DNA of 5,967 nt from a virus (IMGVR_UViG_2623620506_000002:1-5967); one strand, 5' to 3'; shown: positions 2,466 through 5,967, numbered from the stretch's first letter. Notes: generated by a model from the letters alone, not told the origin. Program-made: numbers and translations.

Positions 2466-2563
2466 GCTCACTCCGGGGAAAGGCGGGCTGACCGGTTTCC
2501 GCAGTGTGCTGATGGCTTTTACCGGCACACCTCCACCGCGCCCGCCCGGTTGTTGGGAGTCGT

Positions 2564-3274
2564 TTACGTGCCCTGCAACGCGCGCAGTCTTGCGGCAATG
2601 CGCTGGCGCAGGGTTTTCACCTGAATTTTTGGATGCAGCCAGGCAGCCTGTTCCAGACACTGGTCGGCCTGTTGCAGTCTCTCCGGATCGTTAATTGCAC
2701 TGGCCAGCGGTTTACCGTCATCGCCGCGCAGCAGCAGGACGCCTGCAAAGCGCCAGTAGCGGGCAGCAAGGCGTTCATTCACGCGCCATTTGTCACGGAT
2801 TTTTTCAAACACCTGCTGAAAATATGGCGCGATACTGTTCCCACGTTCAGCTTCGGTTTCTGCCCATTCAAGAATGAAATGGACCACAAACGTTGGCAGC
2901 TCGCTTTTGAAGTTCTCCGGCGTCTTTTGCCCCTGCTCAATGGCAATGTCAGCCCACTGCAGCGCCATCTCAAACTGCCCGGTATCGAACAGCCAGATGA
3001 TGCAGTACACCAGAATGGGATTCTGATAGACGCGTTCCCCCTCCAGATAAGCCTGTGCGTGTGGCAGCCAGCGGGGCAGCAGCGTGTTCCGTTTGAATTC
3101 CAGCTTGTCAGACAGCAGCTCCATGTTGTGCAGTTGTCTGATGTCATTATCCAGTGCCATCAGCTTAATGTGCTGACTCTCTGTGCTGATGGCGCTCCCG
3201 TCCGTTCTGGTCATGAGCGCCGCACGGCGCTCATCCATCTGTCGGGCACGTTGTCGCTGCATTGGCGTTGGCAT
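2564..3274 (-). CDS. Phage terminase small (endonuclease) subunit, P2 gpM-like
   Basis: 236-aa ORF starting 17 nt after the capsid gene stop, with GGAG upstream. The N-terminus (MPTPMQRQRARQM) and internal LLPRWLP and LLRGDDG segments resemble P2 gpM as recalled, and the position after the capsid gene fits. Confidence 0.85.
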   Translation of the reverse strand: MPTPMQRQRARQMDERRAALMTRTDGSAISTESQHIKLMALDNDIRQLHNMELLSDKLEFKRNTLLPRWLPHAQAYLEGERVYQNPILVYCIIWLFDTGQFEMALQWADIAIEQGQKTPENFKSELPTFVVHFILEWAETEAERGNSIAPYFQQVFEKIRDKWRVNERLAARYWRFAGVLLLRGDDGKPLASAINDPERLQQADQCLEQAAWLHPKIQVKTLRQRIAARLRALQGT

Positions 3275-3291: not shown

Positions 3292-4305
3292 TCAGGCGAT
3301 GGTGACCGCAGACTCATCCACGGCAGCATATAAATCCGGATCGCCCAGGGCGTACCCCTCGTAACGCCAGTATGAGTTTTCGAACTGTTTGCGATCGCCC
3401 ACATCTTCCGCTTTACGACGGCGGGAACCCTTCAGCGTCAGGATCTGCAGGTTTGGCAGCATGGTCACCACCATACGTTTGCCCGGCATAAACGGCGGAA
3501 TGATGGCCTTGCGGCCTGCAATGTTCTTCGTCAGCAACTGTGCGGCCACTTTTTCGGTAGGCTTGTCCTCTTTGTTGTAGAGGCGCAGCTCCTCGGCGGC
3601 CACAAGGTCAGCACCAACCAGCACGGTAAGGCGTGGATCGTTGTGATACTGCGCCGGGATGTAAGTGCGGATCAGATCGGACGCCATGGCATCCAGCCCC
3701 ACGTAATCGCCGCCGTCACCCAGGGTAACGGCGTCTGTCAGAATACGGGAGGTATTGCCTGGCTGTTCTCCCCACTTACGGGCGATTTCATGCCAGCCGA
3801 TGTTGACGTCTTCGCCGTTCGGGTGACTTTCCGGGTCAGAGTTTTCCGCTGCTGTTTTACCGTTAAAGCCAATGCGCAGCATATCCAGCGCAAAGTTGGT
3901 GACGGCGGCGGAGTTCATCAGGTTGAAAAATTCCTGCGGGCTGCCGGCATTCGCCCAGATGGCGAGTTGTTCCCAGGTGATCACGCAGCAGGAATCAGTT
4001 TCAACGAGTTTAAATTCGTTGCCTTTGATGCCCGAACCTTTAGCGAAACGACCGCTTTTCACGCGACCGGTGCGCAGTGTGGATTCGCCCACGGTGACGA
4101 CCTGCCCCTGCGGGTGCGGAACGTCCATGCAGGTGATGAAATTCAGAAACTCCGTGCTTTCCAGCAGGGCTTTACGCAGAGCAATACTGCGTGGCTCGGT
4201 CAGCGAAAAGAAACGATCGCTTGATTTCCCGCAGTCACTGAATGTTTTTTGCAGTTCGCTGATGTACTGATTAACCAGCTTTTGTGCTTCTGGTGTCATG
4301 TTCAT
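3292..4305 (-). CDS. Phage major capsid protein, P2 gpN family
   Basis: 337-aa ORF with GGAGAG SD 7 nt upstream of the ATG at 4305. Conserved blocks (GFNGKTAAENSD, IGWHEI, GGDYVGLDA, DPRLTVLVGADLVA) agree with the P2 gpN family as recalled. It lies directly downstream of the scaffold gene. Confidence 0.9.
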   Translation of the reverse strand: MNMTPEAQKLVNQYISELQKTFSDCGKSSDRFFSLTEPRSIALRKALLESTEFLNFITCMDVPHPQGQVVTVGESTLRTGRVKSGRFAKGSGIKGNEFKLVETDSCCVITWEQLAIWANAGSPQEFFNLMNSAAVTNFALDMLRIGFNGKTAAENSDPESHPNGEDVNIGWHEIARKWGEQPGNTSRILTDAVTLGDGGDYVGLDAMASDLIRTYIPAQYHNDPRLTVLVGADLVAAEELRLYNKEDKPTEKVAAQLLTKNIAGRKAIIPPFMPGKRMVVTMLPNLQILTLKGSRRRKAEDVGDRKQFENSYWRYEGYALGDPDLYAAVDESAVTIA

Positions 4306-4319
4306 TGAGTTCTCTCCGG

Positions 4320-5210
4320 TTACACCAGGTTAAAAGTTTCGCCACCGGCCGGATTGTTGCCCGGCAGCTTCGTGGCGTCCTTGCTGAGTTCAGCAAATGC
4401 GGTTTCCATACTGGTAACCTTCTCCGCGATGGCGTTCACTGTGGAGAACAGCTTTTCGCCCTGCTCGGTGGTCAGCGTGAAGGTTTTGTCGTCCTTGTTG
4501 TTCTGTTCTGCGTTGTCCTGCCCCTGATCGCCGGTGCTGCCTTCCGGCTTGTTATCACCGGTATCTTTCGGGGCATCCTTCGCGCTGAACTGCGCGACGT
4601 TTTCTTCCAGTTTGTCCAGGCGTTCGCCGGTTTTGTTGATAGCGTCCATCAACTGGCCGAACTGTTTTTCGTTCATATCGTTTTCCTGTTTGTTGCGTCC
4701 CACGGAGAAAAGGCCGGAAAAGAAACTGCGTTTGGCCTGCTCGTCGTCAGACTGCAGCGTGAAATTCAGTTCTTCTGCATTCCCCATGTGAATGGAATCT
4801 CCCTGCGAAAATTGCAGGCGGGTGGTGTTGATGCTGGCCGGTGTGTCAGTCACAGCGATACCGGATACAAAGAATTTGCCTGTTCCCAGGTAGTTTTCCT
4901 TTACCTCTATGGAGGTGAAAAGTTTTTGTCCAGCCTCGTTGGCTTCGGTCAGAAAGCGGTTGGGTATCAGGCGGGCTTTCAGCTGCACTTTATCACCGAC
5001 TTTTTCCGCCTTCAGTGCATCAACAAGACCATAGTTATTGGTGAAAGCACGCCAGCCGGCGCTGGCATGAAACGGCCAGAGCATGGCGGTGTGTTCGTCC
5101 GGGTTATAAACCTCGGCGGCATCCGTCAGCCACTTTGGATCAATTTCCCGACCGTCGATGGTGGGGCCTGAAGTGGCTACGACCACCCAGTCTGTTTTCA
5201 GTTTCGACAT
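4320..5210 (-). CDS. Phage capsid scaffolding protein, P2 gpO family
   Basis: 296-aa ORF. The N-terminus (MSKLKTDWVVVATSGPTIDGREI...VDALKAEKV...IAVTDTPAS) resembles P2 gpO as recalled, and the C-terminal half is a polar, acidic low-complexity segment typical of scaffolding proteins. It is the first gene of the minus-strand operon, divergent from the terminase ATPase gene. Confidence 0.9.
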   Translation of the reverse strand: MSKLKTDWVVVATSGPTIDGREIDPKWLTDAAEVYNPDEHTAMLWPFHASAGWRAFTNNYGLVDALKAEKVGDKVQLKARLIPNRFLTEANEAGQKLFTSIEVKENYLGTGKFFVSGIAVTDTPASINTTRLQFSQGDSIHMGNAEELNFTLQSDDEQAKRSFFSGLFSVGRNKQENDMNEKQFGQLMDAINKTGERLDKLEENVAQFSAKDAPKDTGDNKPEGSTGDQGQDNAEQNNKDDKTFTLTTEQGEKLFSTVNAIAEKVTSMETAFAELSKDATKLPGNNPAGGETFNLV

Positions 5211-5404
5211 CTGAATTAACCCGCTGATAAAAATTAAACTGGCGTTATTTAACGGAGAAATAAAAATGTCGTCATCTGATTAATTTCCGGTACTTTCGGA
5301 TATGCGTATATATCCGAAAAATACCGAAAAGCGATATTCGTTTTTAAAAAAGCCTTTGCTGAAAATGCATAAATTAAAATTGCATCAGCAGGTGAGGTTT
5401 ATTT
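5211..5404. promoter_or_regulatory. AT-rich divergent intergenic control region between the scaffold operon (minus) and the terminase ATPase operon (plus), presumed to carry the late promoters
   Basis: 194 bp that is visibly AT-rich against GC-rich flanking coding sequence, bounded by two divergent start codons. Contains a dyad-symmetric element and a candidate -10 hexamer TAAAAT at 5375-5380. No transcription start can be determined from sequence alone. Confidence 0.55.
5294..5319. repeat. Inverted repeat TTTCGGATAT-N6-ATATCCGAAA (perfect 10-bp arms); candidate regulator binding site
   Basis: Read directly from the sequence: 5294-5303 tttcggatat, spacer gcgtat, 5310-5319 atatccgaaa, which is the exact reverse complement of the left arm. 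Related TTCCGG (5285-5290) and CCGAAA (5324-5329) half-sites flank it. Confidence 0.6.
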
Positions 5405-5967
5405 ATGGCGTATTCTGATGAGGTGATTGCTGCTGCAAAATCGCTCTATCTGAAAAGACACACACCAAAAGAAATACAAAAGAAGCTCGGACTGAACAGC
5501 CCGCGAATTGTTTATTACTGGGCGACAAAGTTTGAGTGGTACACACAGCTTAATACTGAAGGCGTGGAAGATGTTATCGCCCGTCGTCTCGCTGTACTGG
5601 CGGAGCGTGATCATAAAACGCCGGAAGAGCACGATGAACTCGATCGCCTGATTGGTCATCACGTCAAACTGATGTCGGTCAGGAACAAGCACACGGAACG
5701 AATGGCCGAGATTGAACGAATGGGAGCGGATATTCCCCAGTCTGGTCGTTATGGAAAAGAAGAACGCGGAGAAAAAGGTGCAGGTAAGAAAGAGCGCCCC
5801 CGCAAAGCTAATGACGTTTCCGGACTGACTGCTGAAAGTTTTGAGCCGTTTACGAAAAAGTTGTTTGCTTATCAGTTGCATCTGCGTGAAAACAAATTCC
5901 GCCGTGTACGCAACCTGCTTAAATCCCGCCAGATTGGGGCGACGTATTACTTCGCGTTTGAGGCATT
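5405..5967 (+). CDS. Phage terminase ATPase (large) subunit, P2 gpP-like, N-terminal 187 codons (continues beyond window end)
   Basis: ATG at 5405 with GAGG SD about 9 nt upstream. Manual translation (MAYSDEVIAAAKSLYLKRHTPKEIQKKLGL...FRRVRNLLKSRQIGATYYFAFEA) shows no stop to the window end. The SRQIGATYYFA segment matches the conserved N-terminal region of P2-type terminase ATPase subunits as recalled, and the divergent placement relative to the scaffold gene is the P2 arrangement. It is absent from the ORF track only because it has no stop in the window. Confidence 0.85.
   Translation, partial: MAYSDEVIAAAKSLYLKRHTPKEIQKKLGLNSPRIVYYWATKFEWYTQLNTEGVEDVIARRLAVLAERDHKTPEEHDELDRLIGHHVKLMSVRNKHTERMAEIERMGADIPQSGRYGKEERGEKGAGKKERPRKANDVSGLTAESFEPFTKKLFAYQLHLRENKFRRVRNLLKSRQIGATYYFAFEA

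What the first reader, a model, noticed from the sequence alone, without database searches (positions are those of the whole stretch)
5211..5404. No canonical P2 Ogr/Delta-type TGT-N12-ACA dyad in the late control region
P2 late promoters are characterised by a TGT-N12-ACA dyad centred near -55 that is recognised by the Ogr/Delta zinc-finger activators. In this region the only TGT is at 5267-5269 and there is no ACA at all on the plus strand, so no TGT-N12-ACA site is possible. With P2-type structural genes and a different dyad (TTTCGGATAT-N6-ATATCCGAAA), the element may use a late activator of different specificity, or a different regulatory logic, from P2.
Basis: partly seen in the sequence, partly recalled or inferred. 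Interest (0 to 1): 0.45.

Follow-up and report, generated by a model that had tools for sequence, protein, structure and literature searches.

The report
K139-type late-promoter activator site
The gap between the head-scaffold and terminase genes of this P2-family prophage lacks the classical P2 activator motif and instead has a conserved four-part TTCGG repeat array, shared with Vibrio phage K139 and dozens of relatives, that is most likely the docking site for the phage's own distant Ogr-type zinc-finger activator.

Summary
Window 5211-5404 has one TGT, no ACA, and a perfect dyad TTTCGGATAT-N6-ATATCCGAAA at 5294-5319. But lacking a strict TGT-N12-ACA says little: chance predicts 0.06 copies here, and none of P2's own annotated activator sites matches that pattern.

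The region is the divergent gpO/gpP control region of an Escherichia prophage with P2-type head genes and a K139/ESSI-2-type tail. In all 22 close relatives with enough flank, an Ogr/Delta zinc-finger gene (PF04606, CX2CX22CX4C) follows the portal gene, so the activator family matches P2's.

The dyad sits midway between the two genes, where P2 has its single shared pO/pP activator site. Vibrio phage K139 carries the same dyad. In viral contigs, 66 of 80 exact matches lie between gpO and gpP homologues; with one outer half-site added to the pattern, 11 of 11 genomic matches do. Outer half-sites follow in 10-bp register. Conserved -10-like hexamers lie about 55-60 bp to each side.

My best reading is one bidirectional late control region bound by a K139-type Ogr homologue with a different DNA specificity, centred near -66 rather than -55. 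Binding and start sites are inferred, not shown. This is a new variant of a known kind, of modest interest.

The parts
5211..5404 (.). Divergent gpO/gpP intergenic region, the late control region. It is AT-rich (32% GC).
   Evidence: ORFs and annotation of a 98%-identical E. coli prophage; Pfam hits for GPO and terminase; composition.
5294..5319 (.). Inner dyad TTTCGGATAT-N6-ATATCCGAAA, centre 5306/5307. It is the proposed core binding site of the Ogr-family activator.
   Evidence: The centre is 96.5 nt from the O start and 98.5 nt from the P start. K139 has the same dyad. Among 8 distinct close relatives, 0 of 20 arm positions vary against 4 of 6 spacer positions. Exact matches lie between gpO and gpP in 66 of 80 viral contigs; 11 of 11 genome matches to the pattern with one outer half-site added do too.
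5284..5293 (.). Left outer half-site-like repeat TTTCCGGTAC, 10 bp upstream of the inner left arm. It is imperfect: TTCCGG where most relatives have TTCGG.
   Evidence: Columns -22, -21 and -18 are conserved in 18-19 of 22 sequence clusters, although the search pattern did not select them.
5320..5329 (.). Right outer half-site AATACCGAAA, with CCGAA in exact 10-bp register with the inner right arm.
   Evidence: Columns +18 to +22 (CCGAA) are conserved in 17-19 of 22 clusters. The same feature recurs in the raw matches.
5270..5275 (-). Predicted -35 hexamer of pO (ATGACG on the minus strand).
   Evidence: The plus-strand CA at -34/-33 from the dyad centre, which is T2G3 of the hexamer, is conserved in 20-21 of 22 clusters. 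This is a prediction. K139's depositors annotated a putative P17 promoter within 2 nt of the equivalent place.
5247..5252 (-). Predicted -10 hexamer of pO (TTAAAT on the minus strand, 17-bp spacer). The predicted start is near 5240.
   Evidence: The A at -60, which is T6 of the hexamer, is conserved in 18 of 22 clusters. This is a prediction. No full sigma-70 consensus match was found.
5361..5366 (+). Predicted -10 hexamer of pP (GAAAAT), with no good -35. The predicted start is near 5373.
   Evidence: The a.aat consensus at +56 to +60 holds in 16 of 22 clusters and mirrors the pO -10. This is a prediction.
4320..5210 (-). gpO capsid scaffold gene, first gene of the leftward late unit.
   Evidence: Pfam PF05929, E 2e-40; annotation.
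5405..5967 (+). 5' part of the gpP large terminase gene, first gene of the rightward unit P-Q-ogr. The ogr-like gene lies about 2.9 kb beyond the window's end.
   Evidence: Pfam Terminase_5/6N/6C on the full-length homologue; portal and ogr/Delta-like genes lie downstream in L001.

Best explanation
Window 5211-5404 is the bidirectional late control region of a P2-family (Peduoviridae) prophage of the K139/ESSI-2/phiO18P type. An array of four half-sites spans 5284-5329. It has an inner perfect dyad TTCGGATAT-N6-ATATCCGAA and one further TTCGG-like repeat 10 bp outside each arm. I propose that the phage's own Ogr/Delta-family zinc-finger protein binds this array; its gene follows the portal gene, outside the window. 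Bound there, the protein would activate two divergent sigma-70 promoters that have recognisable -10 hexamers but weak -35 hexamers. pO drives the head, lysis and tail genes leftward. pP drives terminase, portal and probably ogr rightward. The logic matches P2, where one shared activator site serves pO and pP. Three things differ: the recognised sequence, the four-part layout, and the predicted position of the centre (about -66/-67 for both promoters, against -55/-56 in P2).

Shown here: the sequence features, their conservation and exclusive context, and the presence of the Ogr-family gene in relatives. Inferred: binding by that protein, activation, and the transcription start sites.
For: 1. 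Position. The dyad centre is 96.5 nt from the O start and 98.5 nt from the P start. P2's record annotates a single 'activator binding site; pO, pP promoters' midway between the two start sites, 55-56 nt from each.

2. Activator. In 22 of 22 close relatives with enough flank, an 85-aa protein is encoded after the portal gene. It matches Pfam Ogr_Delta at E 9e-13 over the whole model (48.3 bits, cutoff 26.3) and has CX2CX22CX4C.

3. Conservation. K139 has aTTCGGATAT-N6-ATATCCGAAa in the same gap, although its terminase is only 54% identical. Of 80 exact TTCGGATA-N8-TATCCGAA matches in viral contigs, 63 lie between divergent gpO and gpP homologues and 3 more are cut by contig ends. All 11 genome matches to a longer pattern are in that context, in Shewanella, Aeromonas, Vibrio cholerae and Escherichia albertii. 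The site occurs once per complete phage genome.

4. Footprint. In close relatives the inner arms are invariant at all 20 positions, while 4 of 6 spacer positions and 15 of 47 flank positions vary. Across 22 clusters, the outer half-sites and the -35/-10-like columns are conserved at fixed distances.

5. Shared regulators. Of 20 K139 non-structural proteins, only the zinc finger, Rep and integrase have homologues in this prophage. The immunity regulators differ.

6. Clade-level co-variation. Relatives with more divergent Ogr homologues carry variant half-sites (TTCGGTTA, TTAGGATAA). Relatives in which tblastn found no window-like Ogr homologue carry unrelated central sequence elements.

7. No canonical sigma-70 promoter is found in the region, as expected for activator-dependent promoters.
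Against: No binding, activation or transcript data exist for this element or, as far as I could find, for K139. The Ogr gene is not inside the window, and its presence in this exact element is inferred from relatives. The protein gives no significant BLASTP alignment to P2 Ogr and is 19% identical in the multiple alignment, so carrying function over from P2 rests on the Pfam match. The link between Ogr type and dyad type follows phylogeny and is not independent evidence. The predicted -10 and -35 hexamers are weak. K139's depositors placed pP (P16) differently, inside the dyad. The left outer half-site in the window is irregular (TTCCGG). A single site for about 19 kb of late genes differs from P2's four promoters, and internal promoters of another kind cannot be excluded.
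Confidence: 0.75

Rival explanations
1. The dyad is the operator of a host transcription factor, either a global or metabolic regulator common to Escherichia, Vibrio, Aeromonas and Shewanella. That factor would couple late gene expression to host physiology.
For: Dyads with 6-bp spacers are typical of many host regulators. The site is conserved across several gamma-proteobacterial hosts.
Against: All 11 matches to the extended pattern in 185,579 species genomes lie between phage gpO and gpP genes, and none lies in a host promoter. The 14 non-phage-context matches in viral contigs are in unrelated contexts; by my own rough estimate of the collection's size, that is about the number chance would give. 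Half-site variants track phage clades rather than hosts. I recall no matching E. coli regulator motif, but I did not run a motif database.
Confidence: 0.06
2. Another phage protein binds the dyad instead of the Ogr homologue. It could be the immunity repressor or Cox keeping late genes silent, or Rep or Int, or an unrecognised small protein.
For: Rep and integrase are also shared between K139 and this prophage. This prophage carries further regulators (Rrf2, MarR, HTH proteins).
Against: The immunity, Cox and CII proteins of K139 have no homologue in this prophage, yet the dyad is identical. No homologue of the Rrf2 or MarR genes is annotated in K139. In P2, Rep acts at an origin inside its own gene and Int binds attP arms, not the head-gene control region. 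The site's position matches P2's Ogr site.
Confidence: 0.08
3. The palindrome works as a nucleic-acid structure without a dedicated protein: a cruciform, an RNA hairpin or terminator separating the two units, or a packaging or replication signal.
For: As single-stranded DNA, 5280-5333 folds at -12.4 kcal/mol, z = -3.96.
Against: There is no T-run and no terminator-like site, and no Rfam match. If the predicted promoters are right, the dyad lies upstream of both starts and is not transcribed. Some relatives have imperfect arms, such as ESSI-2 with TTCGGATAT against TTCGGGAAA. The outer repeats are direct rather than inverted with respect to the adjacent inner arms, which fits protein binding better than a stem. 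The cos sites are annotated elsewhere in P2 and phiO18P.
Confidence: 0.03
4. The dyad is a chance palindrome in AT-rich DNA, and the late promoters are constitutive or are controlled elsewhere.
For: A perfect inverted repeat of at least 10 bp arises in 1.2% of simulated regions.
Against: The dyad is conserved at the same place in phages whose terminases are 40-60% identical. Its arms are invariant while its spacer varies.
Confidence: 0.01

Closest known systems
Phage P2 pO/pP late control region with the Ogr activator (also 186 B, P4 Delta, PSP3 Pag)
   Same: The head genes O and P diverge in the same way, and a single dyad lies midway between them. A small C4 zinc-finger activator of Pfam family Ogr_Delta is encoded by the phage. 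The promoters lack a good -35.
   Different: The recognised sequence is unrelated: TTCGGATAT-N6-ATATCCGAA with outer repeats, against TGT-N12-(A/C)CA. The predicted centre is about -66/-67 rather than -55/-56. The genome has one site rather than three annotated sites serving four promoters. The ogr gene follows the portal gene instead of lying next to attP. The protein has a C-terminal extension, gives no BLASTP alignment to P2 Ogr, and is 19% identical in the multiple alignment.
Vibrio cholerae phage K139 (Longwoodvirus), orf16/orf17 intergenic region and zinc-finger Orf13
   Same: The inner dyad is identical (TTCGGATAT-N6-ATATCCGAA), the outer TTCGG-like repeats are present, and the location and gene order are the same. 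Orf13 is 46% identical to the activator candidate here.
   Different: The host and the immunity module differ. The pP side is shorter, and its predicted -10 lies just before the gpP ATG. The K139 record annotates only putative sigma-70 promoters there and no activator site. The K139 paper (Kapfhammer et al. 2002) could not be read here.
Cronobacter phage ESSI-2 (Seongnamvirus), Salmonella phage SI7 (Irrigatiovirus) and Aeromonas phage phiO18P
   Same: Genome architecture is the same: P2-type head, DUF2586 sheath tail, and ogr after the portal gene. Their Ogr homologues are 41-52% identical, and a TTCGG-type dyad lies in the O/P gap.
   Different: The half-sites vary. ESSI-2 has one degenerate arm. 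phiO18P has TTCGGATCC/AAATCCGAA. SI7 has no TTCGGATA-type match; it may carry the TTCGGTTA variant seen in related viral contigs, which I did not read directly.
Ralstonia phages phiRSA1 and phiRSY1, and Stenotrophomonas phage Smp131
   Same: These are published cases in which a P2-family phage with an Ogr homologue has putative late-promoter dyads that depart from, or only resemble, the P2 consensus. One example is TGTTGT-N13-ACAACA (PMC5694545, PMC3931495).
   Different: Those motifs still contain TGT/ACA and occur at about four promoters per genome. The motif here has no TGT/ACA and occurs once.

Membership tests
P2-type Ogr/Delta-dependent late promoter (TGT-N12-ACA class) | A partial dyad of TGT-N12-ACA type upstream of the promoter | tested here: not met
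   There is one TGT, no ACA, and no TGT-N11-13-ACA or TGT-N12-CCA in 5211-5404. As a control, P2's own annotated sites are only near-matches.
P2-type Ogr/Delta-dependent late promoter (TGT-N12-ACA class) | Activator site centred near -55 from the transcription start | tested here: inconclusive
   No start sites have been mapped. Conserved -10-like hexamers predict a centre near -66/-67 for both promoters, against -55/-56 from P2's annotated starts.
P2-type Ogr/Delta-dependent late promoter (TGT-N12-ACA class) | One site shared by the divergent pO and pP promoters between genes O and P | tested here: met
   The dyad centre is 96.5 and 98.5 nt from the two start codons, and the layout matches the P2 annotation.
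P2-type Ogr/Delta-dependent late promoter (TGT-N12-ACA class) | Transcription depends on the phage activator and on the RNA polymerase alpha subunit | not testable with these tools
   This needs reporter assays, in vitro transcription, or rpoA mutants.
Ogr/Delta zinc-finger activator family (Pfam PF04606) | Match to the family model above Pfam's gathering score | tested here: met
   48.3 bits against a cutoff of 26.3, E 9.4e-13, model positions 1-47 of 47. The gene is in L001 at 28285-28542 and in 22 of 22 close relatives with flank. It is not inside the window.
Ogr/Delta zinc-finger activator family (Pfam PF04606) | Four cysteines spaced CX2CX22CX4C | tested here: met
   C8, C11, C34 and C39. 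They are invariant in the alignment with K139, HP1-type and P2 proteins.
Ogr/Delta zinc-finger activator family (Pfam PF04606) | Direct pairwise similarity to P2 Ogr | tested here: not met
   BLASTP finds no alignment at E <= 100, and identity is 19% in the multiple alignment. This is a distant subfamily with a C-terminal extension.
K139/ESSI-2-type late control region (defined in this report) | TTCGGATA-N8-TATCCGAA between divergent gpO and gpP genes, once per genome | tested here: met
K139/ESSI-2-type late control region (defined in this report) | Outer TTCGG/CCGAA repeats in 10-bp register on both sides | tested here: met
   The right side has CCGAA exactly in register (5325-5329). The left side reads TTCCGG, which is one base irregular.
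   No such product appears in the RefSeq annotation of the 98%-identical prophage. I ran no dedicated HMM search of all its ORFs.

The most novel reading that the evidence does not exclude
K139-type Ogr homologues form an orthogonal activator/operator pair. They would read a four-half-site TTCGG array centred one helical turn further upstream than the P2 site, and one such array would drive the whole late programme in both directions. The array shares nothing with TGT-N12-ACA, so P2 Ogr and P4-type satellite Delta proteins could not switch on this phage's late genes, and the reverse would also hold. That would insulate the phage from P2 co-prophages and from P4-like satellites in the same Escherichia host.
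Probability: 0.3. Interest if true: 0.5.

Novelty: new variant of a known kind. Interest (0 to 1): 0.35.

Why it matters
If confirmed, this gives the Ogr/Delta family a second, well-defined recognition code, with 22 sequence clusters (47 distinct sequences) of natural variant sites already in hand. The family is a classic bacterial zinc-finger activator family for which the sequence search found no solved structure. It would also show that a large branch of P2-family phages runs its whole late programme from one bidirectional site. In practice the motif marks the late control region in K139/ESSI-2/phiO18P-like prophages of Vibrio, Aeromonas, Shewanella and Escherichia. It predicts which helper phages P4-type satellites can or cannot trans-activate. 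It also offers an orthogonal activator/promoter pair for engineering. Nothing here overturns current understanding.

Tried and rejected
- Megablast of the window against the phage collection gave no match. Relatives were reached through E. coli genomes and protein-level searches instead.
- The sigma-70 consensus scan found nothing in 5150-5450 or upstream of ogr. The promoter elements were therefore inferred from conservation at fixed distances.
- I looked for a second copy of the dyad or any TGT-N12-ACA in the other late intergenic gaps of the full prophage and found none. The other gaps are short or GC-rich.
- I looked for the motif outside phage head-gene context, such as in satellites or host genes. 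The longer pattern gave none in genome contigs. In viral contigs the non-phage matches are in unrelated contexts and about as many as my rough size estimate predicts by chance.
- Literature. The Kapfhammer 2002 K139 paper and the Esposito 1996 HP1 paper are not held. One broad search was swamped by heterochromatin protein HP1. A search for the motif text found only unrelated primer sequences. The PV94 paper does not discuss promoters. I therefore cannot exclude that the K139 dyad was noted in print.
- A PDB sequence search with the activator gave only marginal RPB9/TFIIS zinc-ribbon hits (E 0.2-0.6) and was not used.
- The Rrf2 regulator next to ogr was rejected as the dyad's partner because no homologue is annotated in K139, which has the identical dyad.

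Full report
**What is in the window.** The window holds, on the minus strand, P2-family genes for a virion morphogenesis (gpS-like) protein, tail completion gpR, head completion gpL, small terminase gpM, major capsid gpN and scaffold gpO (4320-5210). On the plus strand, from 5405, it holds the start of the large terminase gpP. The finding's interval 5211-5404 is therefore the divergent O/P intergenic region. It is 32% GC, against 55% for the window.

The window has no near match among deposited phages. It is 95-98% identical to a prophage in 41 complete E. coli genomes. Its control region is identical to one in Escherichia albertii NBRC 107761, with gpO 100% and gpP 98.8% identical.

The full prophage (L001) has a P2-type head module, a tail with a DUF2586 sheath like K139, ESSI-2 and phiO18P, a gpA-type replication gene and a P2 C-type immunity region. 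After the portal gene it carries a gene annotated as an ogr/Delta-like zinc finger.

**Checking the observation.** TGT occurs only at 5267, and there is no ACA. The only TGT-N12-ACA in the window is at 3386, inside the capsid gene. The perfect dyad TTTCGGATAT-N6-ATATCCGAAA lies at 5294-5319.

Two controls limit what the absence means. First, only 0.06 copies of TGT-N12-ACA are expected in 194 nt of this composition, so finding none is the chance outcome. Second, none of P2's own three annotated activator sites matches the strict pattern. pO/pP and pF read TGT-N12-CCA, and pV reads TGT-N11-ACA. Even so, the region here also lacks any such near-match, so there really is no P2-type site.

Taken alone, the dyad is only moderately unlikely: 1.2% of Markov-simulated regions contain a perfect inverted repeat of at least 10 bp.

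**The activator.** The gene after the portal gene (L001 28285-28542) encodes an 85-aa protein. It matches Pfam Ogr_Delta over the entire model (E 9.4e-13, 48.3 bits, cutoff 26.3) and has the family's CX2CX22CX4C spacing. All 22 close relatives (gpP at least 90% identical) that have enough downstream sequence encode it.

It is a distant member of the family. BLASTP finds no alignment to P2 Ogr, and identity is 19% in a multiple alignment. The four cysteines, a tyrosine and a threonine are nevertheless invariant, and there is a C-terminal extension that P2 Ogr lacks. Its nearest phage relatives are in Salmonella SI7/SW3 (52%), Cronobacter ESSI-2 (48%), Yersinia vB_YenM_324 (46%), Aeromonas phiO18P (41%) and Vibrio K139 Orf13 (46%).

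So the element does encode an Ogr homologue.

**Position of the dyad.** The centre (5306/5307) is 96.5 nt from the O start codon and 98.5 nt from the P start codon. The P2 record annotates one 'activator binding site; pO, pP promoters' at 3057-3087. It lies between the P transcription start (3016) and the O start (3127), 55-56 nt from each. The dyad here occupies the equivalent place.

**Conservation.** I fetched 75 loci encoding terminase relatives, 36-100% identical, and read their O/P gaps. Relatives down to about 54% terminase identity all carry a TTCGG-type dyad with the same 6-bp spacer. Variants include TTCGGATAA, TTCGGTTAT and TTAGGATAA. More distant groups carry other central sequence elements; Burkholderia-type loci, for example, have CGTAGAGAC-N2-GTCTCTACG.

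K139 itself has aTTCGGATAT-ggggtt-ATATCCGAAa in its orf16/orf17 gap. That is the same inner dyad as the window, in a Vibrio phage whose terminase is 54% identical.

An exact-pattern scan of 2.9 million viral contigs for TTCGGATA-N8-TATCCGAA returned 80 stretches. Of these, 63 lie between divergent gpO and gpP homologues and 3 more are cut by a contig end. The other 14 are in unrelated contexts. By my own rough estimate of the collection's size, that is about the number chance would give.

A longer pattern that adds one outer half-site was run against one genome for each of 185,579 species. It gave 11 hits, in Shewanella, Aeromonas, Vibrio cholerae and E. albertii. All 11 are in the O/P gap, one of them cut by the locus edge.

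In complete genomes (this prophage, K139, ESSI-2, phiO18P) the site occurs once.

**Fine structure.** I aligned 47 distinct control regions on the dyad centre, forming 22 clusters below 80% identity. The following columns are conserved although the search pattern did not select them:
- ATA/TAT next to the TTCGG/CCGAA pentamers, in 20-22 of 22 clusters.
- A second TTCGG-like element exactly 10 bp outside each arm, in 17-19 of 22.
- CA at -34/-33 on the O side, in 20-21 of 22.
- A at -60, in 18 of 22.
- a.aat at +56 to +60, in 16 of 22.

Read on the transcribed strands, these columns correspond to:
- a -35 hexamer (ATGACG, window 5275 to 5270) and a -10 hexamer (TTAAAT, 5252 to 5247, 17-bp spacer) for pO;
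- a mirror-image -10 (GAAAAT, 5361-5366) for pP, with no good -35.

K139's depositors independently annotated a putative promoter for the O operon within 2 nt of the equivalent position. The predicted starts, near 5240 and 5373, put the array centre at about -66/-67 for both promoters. That is roughly one helical turn further upstream than in P2. These are predictions, and the simple sigma-70 scan finds no consensus promoter.

Among eight distinct close relatives, the 20 inner-arm positions never vary. By contrast, 4 of 6 spacer positions, 7 of 20 outer-arm positions and 15 of 47 flank positions do vary. That is the signature of a protein-contacted dyad with a non-contacted spacer.

**Which protein binds.** Of 20 K139 non-structural proteins, only three have a homologue in this prophage: the zinc finger Orf13, Rep and integrase. 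The repressor, Cox and CII do not, and no homologue of this prophage's Rrf2 and MarR regulators is annotated in K139. Two phages that share an identical dyad at the same place therefore share only one transcription-factor-like protein, the Ogr homologue.

A host factor is unlikely, because the extended motif is found only in this phage context. A purely structural role is unlikely for four reasons. Some relatives have imperfect arms. The outer repeats are direct rather than inverted with respect to the adjacent inner arms. There is no terminator-like feature or Rfam match. And the site lies upstream of both predicted starts.

**Conclusion on mechanism.** The most likely reading (about 0.75) is that 5284-5329 is the single, bidirectional binding array for a K139-type Ogr-family activator. 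This activator would switch on pO, which drives the head, lysis and tail genes (all co-directional with small gaps), and pP, which drives terminase, portal and probably ogr itself, ending at the hairpin after ogr. The logic is P2's. The DNA code, the four-half-site layout, the predicted distance to the promoters and the use of one site per genome are different. Binding, activation and start sites are inferred and have not been shown.

**Comparison with what is known, and novelty.** Published genome papers describe P2-family phages with Ogr homologues and TGT/ACA-containing dyads, such as TGTTGT-N13-ACAACA in phiRSY1 and phiRSA1 and TGT-N12-ACA-like sites in Smp131 (PMC5694545, PMC3931495). A later paper notes that K139's ogr homologue sits after the portal gene and may imply different timing (PMC8537503). 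I found no description of the TTCGG array in the held literature. However, the K139 and HP1 genome papers could not be read.

I file this as a new variant of a known kind: a member of the Ogr/Delta-dependent late-promoter systems by activator family and architecture, but not a member of the TGT-N12-ACA class. Interest is modest. A specialist would not be surprised that a distant Ogr homologue reads a different sequence. The motif is clean, widespread and immediately testable, and it may explain insulation from P2 Ogr and P4 Delta cross-activation.

Noticed in passing
window 5330-5404 (compare L008-L015, L019, L022): The P-proximal half of the control region is mosaic. Relatives whose terminase is 98-99% identical have either this 194-bp version or 220-230-bp versions. 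The longer versions have an unrelated right half containing direct repeats TTACGGAACG TTACGGAACG AACCG. The dyad and the O-proximal half stay the same.
   Followed up: partly
L079 (P2) 3057-3087, 10239-10266, 17555-17583: None of P2's three annotated activator binding sites matches the textbook TGT-N12-ACA exactly. Two read TGT-N12-CCA and one reads TGT-N11-ACA, so a strict pattern search would miss the late promoters of P2 itself.
   Followed up: yes
L080 (K139) 16838-16852; also L088, L114, L140: In K139-like and some other relatives the conserved pP -10 hexamer (TATGAT, CATAAT) ends about 6-7 nt before the gpP ATG. This suggests a leaderless or near-leaderless terminase mRNA. The window, by contrast, has a roughly 32-nt leader with an AGGTGAGG ribosome-binding site.
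   Followed up: no
L042-L055; L060-L066; L068-L078 (O/P gaps): More distant terminase relatives carry other conserved elements at the same central position. The Burkholderia-type loci have the perfect palindrome CGTAGAGAC-N2-GTCTCTACG. The Pasteurellaceae/HP1-type loci have TTAGTATC-N22-TTGAAAC, which looks like back-to-back promoter elements rather than a dyad. A third group has TTCTATAT...ATATAGAA-type dyads. Host assignments here are my guesses from sequence composition and Ogr type.
   Followed up: partly
window 5368-5377 and 5398-5407: An AT-rich inverted repeat, CATAAATTAA / TTTATTTATG (90% complementary, 20 nt apart), lies in the predicted gpP leader. Its right arm includes the gpP start codon, so it could affect translation initiation.
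   Followed up: no
L001 28611-30562 (outside the window): Immediately after ogr this prophage carries an Rrf2-family regulator, a small hypothetical gene and a ParM-type partition pair. These are unusual cargo for an integrated P2-family prophage. A long GC-rich hairpin between ogr and the Rrf2 gene looks like a bidirectional terminator.
   Followed up: no
L001 38248-38265 (outside the window): The only intergenic TGT-N12-ACA of the whole prophage (TGTATAAACATTAATACA) lies in the early/immunity switch region, between the divergent HTH repressor gene and the early operon. It is probably an operator or a chance match, not a late promoter.
   Followed up: no
window 2466-2563: A 98-bp GC-rich non-coding gap separates gpM and gpL, with no promoter-like or dyad feature. 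P2 has a gap of almost the same length (99 bp) at the same junction.
   Followed up: no
L001 9320-11358 (outside the window): The tail-fibre region of the reference prophage contains pseudogene fragments: a partial 'shikimate transporter' and a truncated tail-collar fibre gene. One other E. coli copy (H8) is interrupted by an IS66 element, so some copies are decaying.
   Followed up: no
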